NCBI RefSeq assembly: GCF_045037415.1
Contig: NZ_CP173438.1
Strand: one strand, 5' to 3'
Length of the DNA: 64,000 bases
DNA from: Escherichia coli
Lineage (GTDB): Bacteria > Pseudomonadota > Gammaproteobacteria > Enterobacterales > Enterobacteriaceae
In this document: positions 30,001 to 33,000 of the stretch, in pieces
How the letters are laid out: each line of letters starts with the position of its first letter
How positions within the stretch are numbered: position 1 is the first letter of the stretch
Program-made: the position numbers

Positions 30001-33000
30001 TTTGGTAAAAAAAATAACATTATTCTTAATATATAGAAAAGGAACTCGTCCTGGACGGGTACAACTTATTAAAAATGCATATCATTTTCACCTCACCGGA
30101 AAACGATTAAAAATCAGTAAGAATTGCTTCTGCCTATATTATATATGCAATATATATTATGATTTCCTTTTCACTTTCAATGAAAACTGTTTTGGTGTTA
30201 TACCAAAATAACTTTTAAAATTACGGATAAAATATGATGTACTAACATACCCAACCTCATCAGATATACTATTAATATGTTTTTCAGTGGTAGTTATCAA
30301 TCTTGCTGCATGTTGCATTCTAATATCCAAAATCAAATTGTTAAAATTATTATTTTCTTTTTCAAGTTTTTTCCGAATTGAGACTTCAGACATATGTAAA
30401 ACATTTGCCAGATCAACTAATCGCCATGATTTTGACAGATCAGATTCTATTATTAACTTTAATTTTTCTGTGAAAGTAGAGTCTGTTGAAACAGATAATG
30501 AGCAAACCAAAGATTCAATATCGTCAACTTTAGATAACAAATAAGTAATGTTATAAATTAGTCTATGATTTGGGACATTTGCCTCTGTTATCATTTTAAA
30601 TATTTCTGTATCTGTCTTATCCGCCATGCAATTAAAAATTCTACTTCGCATAGGGCCAATTTTATGGGGATTCAGTAACAATGGTTCCATGACTTTGCAG
30701 ATACAGCTTAATATATTATTATCTATATGAAAAATATCATAAGGCATGCCTTTACCTAACACGTTAAGTGTTACATCAATGACTGTATTTTTCTCAATAT
30801 AACATATTGATTCAGGTGGGATATTAATAACCCCCCCATCTATCGTTTTAACAAGTAATTGGGCATTGCGAAGATAAATAATGGCACAATTGTAGAATCT
30901 AATCTTTTTAAGAACCAATGTAGAGTTACCGGATATATCCCCTCTCACAGCAAGCCTCATATTACTTAAAGCATTTTGACTATTCATACAGTCACCCCCA
31001 TGCTTTGTAACAACATAATTTCATGGGATATCCACTCTGTAAACTCGGAAATAACGCAAAGATGAATACTTCCCGGTAAAAAGTTTCGCATCGACATATC
31101 AACTAATTTCATAGACTATAAATAATTAGTCACTATGATGATAAAATTAATTGACTCTGATAATAGTTACGTCATGAAAATAAAATCAGTTGATGTTACA
31201 GATAACACCTAAAAAGAATTGGAAGCTTCCGTGTCGTTTCAGCACCAAATTTAATTTTTATCATTCTTATTCTATAATAAATTTTACTTACACTTAAACA
31301 TGTAATCTTTGAAATTTCTTTTATTTTTCTCCGCTTAATGAAATAGAGGTAAAGAATCTCTCGTTCGGTATTATTAAGAGATCGAAGAATTTGTTCTGGT
31401 GGATACGTATAATCAATTGATAACCGATTTCCATAGTGGATACTTATATTATCAGCACATATGCATTTAACAGGCCCCCCTGAAAAAAGAAGACTGTATA
31501 AAAAATAATTACTATTATCGCAAATCATATAAACATGATTATATTGCTGAACGGCCTCATATACAGAGGCACGGCCACTGAACTCAAAACATTTATACTC
31601 TTCATCCTGACTTGAAAAATATAAGAGACCATTTTTTAAATAAAAATCTTTTGTAACCATTATTAGCGCAACGGTCATAGCACATATAAAATATTAGAAA
31701 CCTGAACTGAATCCAACTATAATCTAAAGTAAAGAATAAAGCCACTCTAAAAAATAGCAGCATAAGATAAAATTTTACACTCCAGAATATCCAATAGATA
31801 AGCATATTTGACTAGCTATAACAATAAATCAATAAGAAAACCTGAACAATATGTTCAGGTTTTCTTTTTTATCTACTCTCCTGCTCAGAATGTATAACGA
31901 ATATTAGCATTTATTAACTTATCAATATTGTATGAACCGAACTCAGAACGCTCCACATTCAGACTTATCCTAGTGTTTTCTTTAATTTTAGTATTTACCC
32001 CGACATTGAATACCACTCTGCTATCTTTACCATTATTAATATATGTATCACCTGCCAGATCCTTGAACGCTGTCACAGTAGGCTTAAATAAATCGTACTG
32101 ATAATTAATCCCAGTCAGCGCTGTCATTTCCCAGTCTTTGCCGCGGAATGTTTTGCCAAATTCAATTCCTGTGCGACCAATCAATGGTTGCATCTGCTTA
32201 CGTTGCATATAGATCTCACCCCCATTGAATTGCCAGGCAAACTGATTCTCAGATACAGTACCGTAGATCAACTCTGTTTGCGGCTGTATATATGTTTCGT
32301 CAGGTAAGGAAAAACGCCAACCGGCCTCAGCGCCCAAATACCAGGAGTGCGAGCCATAATCTTGTTCTGGCATTCCTAACGCACTTGATGAGTAATGATT
32401 GTCATGACGCACATATTTCCCGATAGTATCTACATAGAGTCCAGAGTCAAACATAGCTGAAGCGTACACACCAATACCCGTTGATTTGGTTCTTCCCGAC
32501 CAACCAGTTCCCCGGTTATTACTGCTTGTAAATGTCGCCGTTACTCCAGTAAATAACTCTCCGCCTTCAATTATATGTTTCCTGTCTGCCCCAATTTGCA
32601 AGTGCGTATAACTTCCGGTAAATCCATCAGTAGCTGAGCCCGAACCACTGTTAAGTCTAGCCCATGCCCCAGTTTCACCATGGGTATGGCGTAAGTCCCC
32701 CATACGATCATTCAGATTATTAATTTCTGTAATAAAGTTTTTATAACCGAGATCCATAAAACTCTTGCCTGTCCGCAAAGCGGCTTTATCAGGCTGTATG
32801 TAAAATCCCTCCAGACGCCATTGCTTATTAACGTCGGTCTCCAACACATCAAGTTGCGGTGTAAAACTATGGAACCCTGCATTTATTGAAACCGGGTTAA
32901 GTGTAAATATATTGCTTTGTGTATTTTTCGGGGCAGTAACCAATGACACAGGGTCACCGCCCTGTTTTACTGAATTTGTCGTAGGAATAACAACCAGTGT

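What the first reader, a model, noticed from the sequence alone, without database searches (positions are those of the whole stretch)
30157..31678. Island-encoded AraC-type and LuxR-type regulator pair downstream of SPATE-2
An AT-rich AraC-family gene (276 aa) and a small LuxR/GerE-type HTH gene (160 aa, no receiver domain) sit co-directionally between the two protease genes and opposite the fimbrial operon. AT-rich AraC regulators of the Rns/AggR/PerA type classically activate horizontally acquired adhesin and virulence loci, so this pair is a candidate dedicated control circuit for the proteases and fimbriae. I am not aware of a characterised function for either.
Basis: inference. Interest (0 to 1): 0.6.

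Follow-up and report, generated by a model that had tools for sequence, protein, structure and literature searches.

The report
RegA-like AraC regulator with conserved partner
Two real, intact regulator genes sit in the known ST131 'espC/tagBC' island of E. coli: an Rns/RegA-class AraC activator already noted in the literature, and an unstudied small DNA-binding protein that always travels with it and may help switch on the island's fimbriae and protease toxins.

Summary
Both ORFs exist at the stated coordinates, are AT-rich and co-directional, and lie between the SPATE genes tagB and tagC, opposite a fimbrial operon. The locus is already described as ROD3 of EC958, the 'ST131 espC island' and the tagBC island. 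Kallonen 2017 lists the AraC gene as cfaD/regA-like and the small ORF as a poorly characterised DNA-binding protein.

New here:
- The AraC is a full-length Rns/CsvR homologue (E 3e-30) and is 31-35% identical to VirF, AggR and CfaD.
- The 160-aa protein is not a bare HTH. Its model has a truncated pseudo-receiver plus a GerE/sigma-region-4-type HTH. Its family is very small.
- In 12 of 12 loci examined, the small gene lies directly upstream of an AraC paralogue. The cargo nearby is fimbriae, SPATEs or dispersin. Both genes are under purifying selection.
- A TATC-N9-TATTTTT box and a TATAGT -10 are invariant upstream of the small gene in 8 loci. The box occurs 4 times in the 64-kb window (0.04 expected): there, twice upstream of the fimbrial operon, and once upstream of tagC.

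Most likely this is a RegA-like activator cassette with an uncharacterised partner. Function is inferred, not shown. Interest is moderate.

The parts
30157..30987 (-). AraC/XylS-family regulator gene (276 aa), Rns/RegA class; exact protein WP_001088099.1
   Evidence: ORF. Pfam HTH_18 and HTH_AraC. Rns/CsvR over the full length, E 3e-30. VirF 35%, AggR 31%, CfaD 34% identity. dN/dS 0.08-0.10. 65% identical to the SMS-3-5 paralogue.
31196..31678 (-). Small partner regulator gene (160 aa): truncated pseudo-receiver (about residues 1-85) plus a GerE/sigma-region-4-type HTH (about residues 95-160). Usually unannotated in RefSeq.
31750..31776 (-). Candidate operator in the small gene's promoter: AAAATTTTATC-N9-TATTTTT, at about -68 to -41 from the predicted start site
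   Evidence: TATC and TATTTTT are invariant in 8 loci whose small proteins are as little as 35% identical. PWM score 31.7 bits. The pattern is enriched in the window.
31716..31721 (-). Predicted -10 hexamer TATAGT of the small gene's promoter. The matching -35 (TGGCTT) is poor, as expected for an activator-dependent promoter.
   Evidence: Invariant in 8 of 8 aligned loci. Sequence read.
31834..31866 (-). Hairpin just downstream of tagB, terminator-like. It separates tagB from the small gene's promoter.
   Evidence: 15-pair stem. It is kept in related loci with changes on both arms, CCTGAAC/GTTCAGG versus GTCTGAG/TTCAGAC.
31015..31043 (-). Predicted sigma-70 promoter of the AraC gene itself (TTTACA-17-AATTAT, with TG), followed by the Shine-Dalgarno sequence GGGGGTGA at 30992-30999
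   Evidence: Promoter scan. The roughly 70 bp upstream of the AraC start codon are highly conserved in 8 loci.
35925..35951 (+). Second copy of the box (AAATAAGTATC-N9-TATTTTT), pointing towards the fimbrial subunit gene, 146 nt before its ATG
   Evidence: PWM score 23.4 bits. Exact pattern match.
35841..35867 (+). Third, weaker copy of the box (TGTTTATTATC-N9-TATTTTT). It is followed by TAGAATTGC, as in the small gene's promoter, and also points towards the fimbrial operon.
   Evidence: PWM score 12.3 bits. Exact pattern match. Sequence.
29378..29404 (+). Fourth copy of the box (ATTATTGTATC-N9-TATTTTT), 377-403 nt upstream of tagC but pointing away from it
   Evidence: PWM score 27.3 bits. 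Exact pattern match. The equivalent site in strain D6 scores 19.1 bits, but that flank is about 90% identical overall, so its conservation carries no information.
36098..39949 (+). Three-gene chaperone-usher fimbrial operon (subunit 36098-36622, chaperone 36687-37379, usher 37412-39949); likely target
   Evidence: ORFs. RefSeq annotation of the identical region.
31885..35724 (-). tagB (SPATE); candidate target, diverging from the fimbrial operon
   Evidence: ORF. S6 family peptidase. Named in PMC6592367.
25072..29001 (-). tagC (SPATE, EspC-like, 1309 aa); candidate target
   Evidence: ORF. Annotation. PMC6592367 gives 1309 aa and the EVNNLNKRM linker.
24586..24858 (-). Left yjdJ copy. It forms an island-bounding direct repeat with 40059-40331; about 325 bp are nearly identical.
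   Evidence: Alignment. Annotation. PMC6592367 and PMC5538559.

Best explanation
The two genes form a mobile regulatory cassette of the Rns/AggR/RegA kind.

Step 1, the activator. The 276-aa AraC protein is made from its own conserved sigma-70 promoter. It is the sequence-specific activator, and it probably counters H-NS silencing of this AT-rich island. (Class membership is shown; activity is inferred.)

Step 2, its targets. It binds TATC-N9-TATTTTT boxes. One box sits just upstream of the weak -35 of the small gene's promoter. This would switch on the small gene and, by read-through, feed back on the AraC gene itself. Two more boxes face the fimbrial operon, and one lies upstream of tagC. 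(The boxes are shown; which protein binds them is inferred from the AggR/Rns TATC consensus.)

Step 3, the partner. The 160-aa protein is an obligate partner: a NarL/FixJ-like regulator with a truncated, probably non-phosphorylatable receiver and a GerE/sigma-region-4-type HTH. It acts as a second-tier DNA-binding factor, either co-activating the cassette's cargo promoters with the AraC or relaying the signal to other promoters. (Fold and co-inheritance are shown; role is inferred.)

The cargo under control is whatever colonisation module the cassette rides with. Here that is the fimbrial operon and probably TagB and TagC.
For: Class of the AraC:
- HTH_18 and HTH_AraC domains.
- Rns/CsvR homology over residues 23-269.
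- Identity to VirF, AggR and CfaD.
- The literature calls it cfaD/regA-like.

Cassette:
- The small gene lies directly upstream of the AraC in 12 of 12 loci examined. These cover chromosomes and plasmids of E. coli, Klebsiella and Citrobacter.
- One of the 12 is split by an insertion.
- The cargo alongside is fimbriae, SPATE or dispersin/Aat-like genes.

Both genes are under purifying selection. The small ORF is intact in 10 of 10 genomes checked.

Fold of the small protein.

Promoter footprint:
- TATC, TATTTTT and TATAGT are invariant in 8 loci.
- The box occurs 4 times in the window against 0.04 expected, always in island intergenic DNA.
- PWM hits also lie upstream of a dispersin gene (L003), fimbriae (L002) and a SPATE (L007).
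- TATC with an upstream A/T tract is the AggR/Rns consensus (PMC6392122).

The AraC gene has its own conserved promoter. A terminator-like hairpin lies after tagB.
Against: - There are no expression, binding or mutant data for either gene.
- TATC lies 44 nt from the -10, not the 21-23 nt of AggR promoters.
- The box near tagC faces away from tagC, and none faces tagB here.
- The PWM was trained on 8 related sites in AT-rich DNA.
- The boxes could instead be bound by the small protein, or by both proteins.
- In this clade the small gene has no clear Shine-Dalgarno sequence, and PGAP does not call it.
- Reported tagB and tagC expression did not differ significantly between LB and mouse bladder. 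Loss of tagBC had no appreciable effect in the mouse urinary tract.
- The AraC is disrupted by IS1 or a frameshift in a few ST131 genomes.
Confidence: 0.5

Rival explanations
1. The small protein is a cross-regulator of host genes outside the island. For example, it could repress flhDC and motility or other adhesins, as RtsB (encoded with the AraC-type RtsA), MrpJ, PapX or FimZ do. In that case the AraC alone would control the island's cargo.
For: Its recognition-helix region (KIYYRI..IK.KLG) is the best conserved part of the family. That suits a conserved DNA target that does not depend on the cargo. Fimbria- and SPATE-linked accessory regulators of this sort are known, for example VatX and PapX. 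The RtsAB precedent comes from my own knowledge.
Against: The cassette occurs in several genera and on plasmids, so no single host target is guaranteed. A TraDIS screen for hyper-motile EC958 mutants does not mention AraC- or LuxR-type island genes in its main text. That is weak evidence, because the genes may be silent in vitro.
Confidence: 0.2
2. The small protein is a negative-feedback or anti-activator partner. The AraC would induce it, and it would then damp the AraC, as Aar/ANR proteins do for AggR, Rns and RegA. It might do this by protein contact through its receiver-like domain or by occupying the same promoters.
For: The only universally conserved box lies in the small gene's own promoter, so the small gene looks like the primary target of the activator. 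AggR, Rns and RegA each have an induced negative partner (PMC4038620).
Against: ANR proteins are under 10 kDa and are not HTH proteins. This protein has a complete DNA-binding HTH fold. The small gene lies upstream of the AraC gene in the same orientation with no terminator found between them, so inducing it should also raise AraC.
Confidence: 0.15
3. The cassette is largely silent or decaying cargo in ST131: silenced by H-NS, with no significant regulatory output under natural conditions.
For: The AraC is interrupted by IS1 in at least 4 complete ST131 genomes and frameshifted in another. It is frameshifted in LWY24 and C. amalonaticus. Part of the island is missing in 11% of English ST131 isolates. 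The tagBC mutant has no mouse phenotype.
Against: About 600 of 5426 complete genomes keep the region at 95% identity or more, and nearly all carry an intact AraC annotation. dN/dS is well below 1 for both genes. The promoters and the box are conserved.
Confidence: 0.12
4. The 160-aa ORF is not a gene at all but a chance ORF in AT-rich spacer DNA.
For: PGAP omits it in most RefSeq genomes. No clear ribosome-binding site precedes it in this clade.
Against: dN/dS is 0.19-0.23. Full-length homologues of 160-173 aa go down to 28% identity, always in the same position. The two-domain fold is confident enough to interpret. Some paralogues are annotated as 'sigma factor-like HTH DNA-binding protein'.
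Confidence: 0.03

Closest known systems
RegA of Citrobacter rodentium and its Escherichia homologues (AraC/XylS family)
   Same: AT-rich AraC-type gene carried with an autotransporter gene and a chaperone-usher fimbrial operon. Related loci also carry dispersin. PMC5538559, citing Tan et al. 2015, says this island harbours a RegA-encoding gene. RegA controls fimbriae, dispersin and the aat system. The SMS-3-5 paralogue, 65% identical, sits in the same kind of module.
   Different: I could not obtain the C. rodentium RegA sequence, so identity was not measured. A peptide-pattern scan of species-representative genomes returned no C. rodentium locus. Bicarbonate response and H-NS antagonism are untested. 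Whether regA in C. rodentium has the small upstream partner is unknown to me.
Rns/CfaD/CsvR (ETEC), AggR (EAEC), VirF (Shigella)
   Same: Homology over the full length, N-terminal domain included (Rns E 3e-30). Similar size. Horizontally acquired, AT-rich loci with adhesin cargo. Candidate binding boxes contain TATC preceded by an A/T tract.
   Different: Only 31-35% identical. The box is bipartite (TATC-N9-TATTTTT) and lies 44 nt, not 21-23 nt, from the -10. Those regulators are not known to me to have an adjacent NarL-like partner gene.
AfrR/AfrS of the AF/R1 pilus operon (rabbit E. coli RDEC-1)
   Same: From memory of Cantey et al. 1999: an AraC-type AfrR and a second small protein AfrS are both needed to activate the pilin gene. 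Several paralogous loci here carry PefC/AfrB-family ushers.
   Different: Not tested. No database hit is named AfrS.
NarL/FixJ-type regulators with atypical receivers (RcsB, EvgA; auxiliary partners such as GadE, RcsA, BglJ)
   Same: The predicted two-domain fold of the small protein matches RcsB, EvgA and NarL over both domains, and GerE over the HTH. The position equivalent to the phospho-acceptor Asp (D54) is nearly invariant.
   Different: The receiver is truncated to about 85 residues. It lacks the acidic pair after strand 1 and the conserved Thr and Lys. Pfam GerE is not matched. Profile comparison with GadE and DctR is not significant. Pairing with RcsB is pure speculation.

Membership tests
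AraC/XylS family, Rns/AggR/VirF/RegA virulence-activator class | C-terminal double helix-turn-helix AraC-type DNA-binding domain | tested here: met
   Pfam HTH_18 4.9e-15 (residues 193-268) and HTH_AraC 1.2e-10.
AraC/XylS family, Rns/AggR/VirF/RegA virulence-activator class | Homology extends through the N-terminal domain to solved members of the class (Rns, CsvR, ToxT) | tested here: met
   Rns 6xiu E 3e-30 over query residues 23-269. CsvR 4.8e-29. ToxT 1e-13, C-terminal half only. VirF 35% identity over residues 28-274.
AraC/XylS family, Rns/AggR/VirF/RegA virulence-activator class | Target promoters carry an A/T tract plus a TATC binding site at a fixed distance from the -10 | tested here: inconclusive
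   Conserved W7TATC boxes were found. The spacing to the -10 is 44 nt rather than 21-23 nt. No binding data.
AraC/XylS family, Rns/AggR/VirF/RegA virulence-activator class | Activates transcription of adhesin and virulence genes, often relieving H-NS silencing | not testable with these tools
   Needs expression and binding experiments.
RegA orthologue group | Close sequence relationship to C. rodentium RegA, and bicarbonate-stimulated activity | not tested
   The RegA sequence and Tan et al. 2015 were not available. The assignment rests on PMC5538559. 65% identity to the SMS-3-5 paralogue.
LuxR/GerE-type HTH regulators (NarL/FixJ class) | Sequence match to the GerE (PF00196) HTH domain | tested here: not met
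   No GerE hit for the window protein. 0 of 16 family members match at E<=0.001 and 2 of 16 at E<=0.1, whereas Sigma70_r4_2 matches 10 of 16.
LuxR/GerE-type HTH regulators (NarL/FixJ class) | Four-helix GerE-type DNA-binding fold at the C-terminus | tested here: met
Two-component response regulators | Complete receiver domain with an acidic pair, phospho-acceptor Asp, and conserved Thr/Ser and Lys | tested here: not met
   The model shows only strands and helices 1-4 within about 85 residues. D54 is conserved, but the acidic pair, Thr and Lys are absent from the family alignment. No adjacent histidine kinase in the window.
Sigma-70 family sigma factors | Region 2 (core binding and -10 recognition) in addition to region 4 | tested here: not met
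   Only region-4-like matches, at residues 95-141, far below the curated cut-offs. The N-terminal half is an alpha/beta domain.
ANR (AraC negative regulators, Aar-like) | Very small (under 10 kDa) non-HTH protein induced by, and repressing, its AraC partner | tested here: not met
   The protein is 160 aa with an HTH fold. The family description comes from PMC4038620. Function not tested.

The most novel reading that the evidence does not exclude
The small protein defines a previously unrecognised family of truncated-receiver, sigma-4/GerE-like proteins. They would be obligate co-activators of one clade of Rns/RegA-type AraC regulators. The two proteins would together recognise the bipartite TATC-N9-TATTTTT box placed beside a defective -35. 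This two-protein activation mode would be distinct from the single-protein AggR/Rns mechanism, and it may be what was glimpsed as AfrR/AfrS. It would control two SPATE toxins and a fimbria in the pandemic ST131 clone.
Probability: 0.25. Interest if true: 0.65.

Novelty: new member of a known kind. Interest (0 to 1): 0.4.

Why it matters
The island is almost specific to ST131 and its closest relatives. It has been proposed as one reason for that clone's success (PMC5538559). How TagB, TagC and the linked fimbriae are switched on is unknown, and the SPATE regulation reviews I searched list no regulator for them.

Three things make the question directly testable: a specific operator sequence, two mapped candidate promoters, and the finding that the AraC always travels with a second unstudied DNA-binding protein. 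The same cassette rides with fimbriae on conjugative Klebsiella plasmids and with dispersin modules in E. coli. Understanding it once would therefore explain the control of several colonisation modules.

If the genes prove silent or redundant, the finding is simply a better annotation of a known island.

Tried and rejected
- GadE/DctR kinship of the small protein. The N-termini look alike by eye (MTKDSFLLQG versus VTKDFYLKNG). Profile comparison was not significant, with E 0.17 and 0.11, so this stays only a hint.
- AfrR/AfrS. The paper is not held. Text searches were unproductive. The adhesiomeR supplement gives only score thresholds. No hit is named AfrS.
- RegA sequence. Tan 2015 is not held. 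The genome-contig scan with the AraC alignment found E. coli, C. amalonaticus and distant Proteus/Citrobacter loci, but not C. rodentium.
- Rfam scan of 28900-36200 gave only sub-threshold hits on the terminator hairpin.
- The simple W7TATC scan alone was too unspecific in AT-rich DNA. It became informative only after phylogenetic footprinting.
- Sigma factor reading of the small protein: rejected because there is no region 2.
- ANR reading: rejected on size and fold.
- NCBIfam gave nothing for the 62- and 69-aa ORFs next to paralogous cassettes.
- The IS-like remnant between the AraC gene and tagC could not be named. Its translation has stops, and its plasmid matches are unannotated.
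Full report
**1. What is there**

The window holds two ORFs on the minus strand. GC content is 0.30 here, against about 0.50 in the flanking core genes.

The pair lies between two serine-protease autotransporter genes. These are 25072-29001 (1309 aa) and 31885-35724. The pair faces away from a three-gene chaperone-usher operon at 36098-39949.

The whole block is flanked by a direct repeat of about 325 bp. The repeat contains yjdJ, at 24586-24858 and 40059-40331. The block lies between ghoST/yjdK and yjdI/dcuS.

**2. The locus is already known**

The 2.9-kb region between the two protease genes is present in 611 of 5426 complete E. 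coli genomes. In 550 of them it is at least 99% identical, and many of these are O25b:H4-ST131.

Three papers describe the island:
- Habouria et al. 2019 (PMC6592367) named the proteases TagB and TagC. They placed them on an island between yjdI and yjdK that is bordered by yjdJ repeats. Their Figure 1 draws 'hypothetical regulatory proteins'.
- Totsika et al. 2011 (PMC3203889) called the island ROD3 of EC958.
- Kallonen et al. 2017 (PMC5538559) called it the 'ST131 espC island'.
  - They listed 'fimD, focC, tsh, cfaD (regA), espC' and two poorly characterised proteins. One of those resembles DNA-binding proteins.
[quoted passage not shown] 2015.
  - They suggested the island may contribute to the success of ST131.

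Reviews of SPATE regulation (PMC6956023, PMC12525524) name no regulator for tagB or tagC. The genes have therefore been noticed, but neither is characterised in any paper I could search.

**3. The AraC protein**

It carries HTH_18 and HTH_AraC domains. It matches the solved structures of Rns (E 3e-30, residues 23-269) and CsvR over nearly its whole length. It matches ToxT and GadX only over the DNA-binding half.

By tblastn it is 35% identical to VirF, about 31% to AggR and about 34% to CfaD. No NCBIfam equivalog reaches its cut-off. Database names are generic.

It is 65% identical to an AraC protein of E. coli SMS-3-5. That protein sits in a similar module made of fimbriae, a SPATE, the small gene and the AraC, between yibF and yibH. 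From memory, SMS-3-5 is the strain whose RegA homologue Tan et al. studied. I could not read that paper or obtain the C. rodentium RegA sequence.

**4. The small protein**

By sequence, Pfam sees only sigma-70 region 4. Sigma70_r4_2 scores 4.3e-5. Across the family, 10 of 16 members match it at E<=0.001, while GerE matches none at that level.

An AlphaFold2 model built on a 16-sequence alignment has mean pLDDT 77. It shows strand-helix repeats over residues 3-74, followed by a helical HTH domain.

Structure searches on that model gave these results:
- Foldseek against the PDB puts RcsB, EvgA, StyR, FixJ, NarL and DosR on top, and the alignments cover both domains.

The protein is therefore a shortened NarL/FixJ-like regulator. 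The receiver is cut down to about 85 residues. The Asp at the phospho-acceptor position (D54) is nearly invariant. The acidic pair, the Thr and the Lys of functional receivers are missing. It is not a sigma factor, because it has no region 2.

The family is very small. A profile search of 1.84 billion representative proteins found 24 hits, of which about ten are full-length clusters. All of them are unnamed or labelled 'sigma factor-like'.

**5. It is a real gene, and the two genes are a unit**

PGAP usually omits the small ORF. Three observations show it is nevertheless a gene:
- dN/dS is 0.19-0.23 where synonymous sites are not saturated. The AraC gives 0.08-0.10.
- It is intact in all ten genomes checked.
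- Full-length homologues of 160-173 aa go down to 28% identity.

In every locus I examined, 12 of 12, the small gene lies directly upstream of an AraC paralogue in the same orientation. One of the twelve is split by an insertion. The loci and their cargo are:

| Locus | Host and replicon | Cargo next to the pair |
|---|---|---|
| window | E. coli chromosome, yjdJ site | fimbriae, TagB, TagC |
| L007 | E. coli D6, variant island at the same site | AfrB-type fimbriae, two SPATEs |
| L008, L009, SMS-3-5 | E. coli chromosome, yibH site | fimbriae, SPATE |
| L002 | E. coli IncFII plasmid contig | fimbriae, SPATE |
| L003 | E. coli Rep3 plasmid contig | dispersin |
| L098 | partition-gene (ParAB) plasmid contig | StcE fragment |
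| L010 | Klebsiella IncF plasmid | SEF14/CS22-type fimbriae, AfaD |
| L015 | C. amalonaticus | decayed SPATE and AraC |
| L094 | metagenome contig | SPATE |
| L095 and L096 | E. coli assembly contig and metagenome contig (same locus type) | two dispersin genes, Aat-like ABC genes |
| L097 | assembly contig | SPATE, fimbriae |

The cargo changes from locus to locus, but the pair does not.

**6. Promoters and a shared box**

I aligned the DNA upstream of the small gene from eight loci. Four features stand out:
- TATC is invariant.
- Nine bases further on, TATTTTT is invariant.
- A TATAGT -10 hexamer is invariant.
- The -35 is poor (TGGCTT in the window), as expected for an activator-dependent promoter.

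In window coordinates these elements are TATC 31769-31766, TATTTTT 31756-31750 and TATAGT 31721-31716. A conserved hairpin after tagB (31866-31834) precedes them. Related loci keep the hairpin with changes on both arms.

The pattern TATC-N9-TATTTTT occurs four times in the 64-kb window, against 0.04 expected. All four copies lie in intergenic DNA of the island:
- the training site, upstream of the small gene
- 35848-35867 and 35932-35951, both pointing at the fimbrial subunit gene
- 29385-29404, which is 377-403 nt upstream of tagC but points the other way

A weight matrix built from the eight sites gives the same picture. It also finds sites upstream of a dispersin gene (L003), fimbriae (L002) and a SPATE (L007).

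TATC preceded by an A/T tract is the published AggR/Rns consensus (PMC6392122). That points to the AraC protein as the binder. However, the spacing to the -10 is 44 nt here, not the 21-23 nt of AggR promoters.

The AraC gene has its own strongly conserved promoter-like element, TTTACA-17-AATTAT at 31043-31015. It also has a good Shine-Dalgarno sequence.

**7. Most likely mechanism**

- The AraC is expressed from its own promoter. (Inferred.)
- It binds the boxes and activates the small gene's promoter. Read-through would then raise its own expression. It also activates the fimbrial operon and possibly the protease genes. (The boxes are shown; which protein binds them is inferred.)
- The small protein is a second DNA-binding factor tied to the AraC. 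It could be a co-activator, a relay, a feedback modulator or a cross-regulator. I cannot separate these with sequence alone.
- The closest worked examples are RegA (fimbriae, dispersin and the aat system; PMC4038620), Rns/AggR, and, from memory, AfrR/AfrS of AF/R1 pili.

**8. Caveats**

- Everything functional is inference.
- The box near tagC faces away from the gene. Its flank is about 90% identical between the two loci compared, so its conservation there carries no information.
- The AraC is inactivated by IS1 or a frameshift in a few ST131 genomes.
- Published data show no significant difference in tagB or tagC expression between LB and mouse bladder, and no mouse phenotype for a tagBC mutant.

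**9. Verdict**

- The AraC is a new, uncharacterised member of a well-known class and has already been flagged in the literature.
- The obligate small partner, its unusual architecture and the conserved bipartite box are the new and testable parts.
- Interest is moderate.

Noticed in passing
window 29093-29120 (-); G tract at 29100-29109: A run of 10 G fills the 16-nt spacer of a predicted tagC promoter (TTTACA-16-TAAACT), about 92 nt before the tagC start codon. Other genomes have G9, G11 or GGGGGGATTTTT, giving spacers of 15-17 nt. This could be slipped-strand phase variation of TagC expression. It could also be homopolymer sequencing error.
   Followed up: partly
window 24586-40331; plasmid records LR890266.1 and NZ_CP107167.1 (L011): Two independent 15,472-bp circular 'plasmid' records consist of exactly the island plus one yjdJ copy. 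That length is the spacing of the two yjdJ repeats in the window. It could be an excised circle formed by recombination between the repeats, or an assembly artefact. The island has no integrase.
   Followed up: partly
window about 29510-30110 (+): Similarity to the strain D6 island ends near 29510, so this is a module junction. It is followed by a sigma-70-like promoter, a 14-bp-arm hairpin (29700-29738) and a broken ORF starting MNTIRIVGIDIA at 29757. By eye this resembles the left end of an IS110-family element. Plasmid matches are unannotated.
   Followed up: partly
window 36098-39949 (+): The fimbrial operon has only a subunit, a chaperone and an usher. No separate tip adhesin or minor subunits follow before the right yjdJ copy. 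The subunit matches no NCBIfam model above its cut-off.
   Followed up: no
window 35697-35724 (-): The start of TagB is ambiguous: the ORF starts at 35724, but the RefSeq start is equivalent to 35697. Its N-terminus lacks the usual MNKIY extended signal-peptide motif that the TagB-like proteins of L007 and L015 have.
   Followed up: no
L010 (Klebsiella plasmid pRHB16-C24_2) 10001-11530: The plasmid AraC is 97% identical in protein to the window's (dS 0.17). The adjacent small protein is only about 81% identical (dS 0.41). This suggests a recombination breakpoint between the two genes, or faster evolution of the small one.
   Followed up: no
L006 2840-2859 (E. coli K-12 hdeA-hdeD intergenic); L018 2126-2145; L019 2151-2190 (Proteus): The TATC-N9-TATTTTT pattern also occurs once in the GadE/GadX-controlled hdeAB-hdeD divergent region of K-12. 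It also occurs one to two times just upstream of distant AraC homologues in Proteus. This may be chance, or a wider binding-site type.
   Followed up: no
L003 1256-2137 and L095 516-1199; L002 position 1-32; L097 148-978: Several related loci carry a second AraC paralogue without a small partner gene next to it. How the two AraC copies divide the work is unknown.
   Followed up: no
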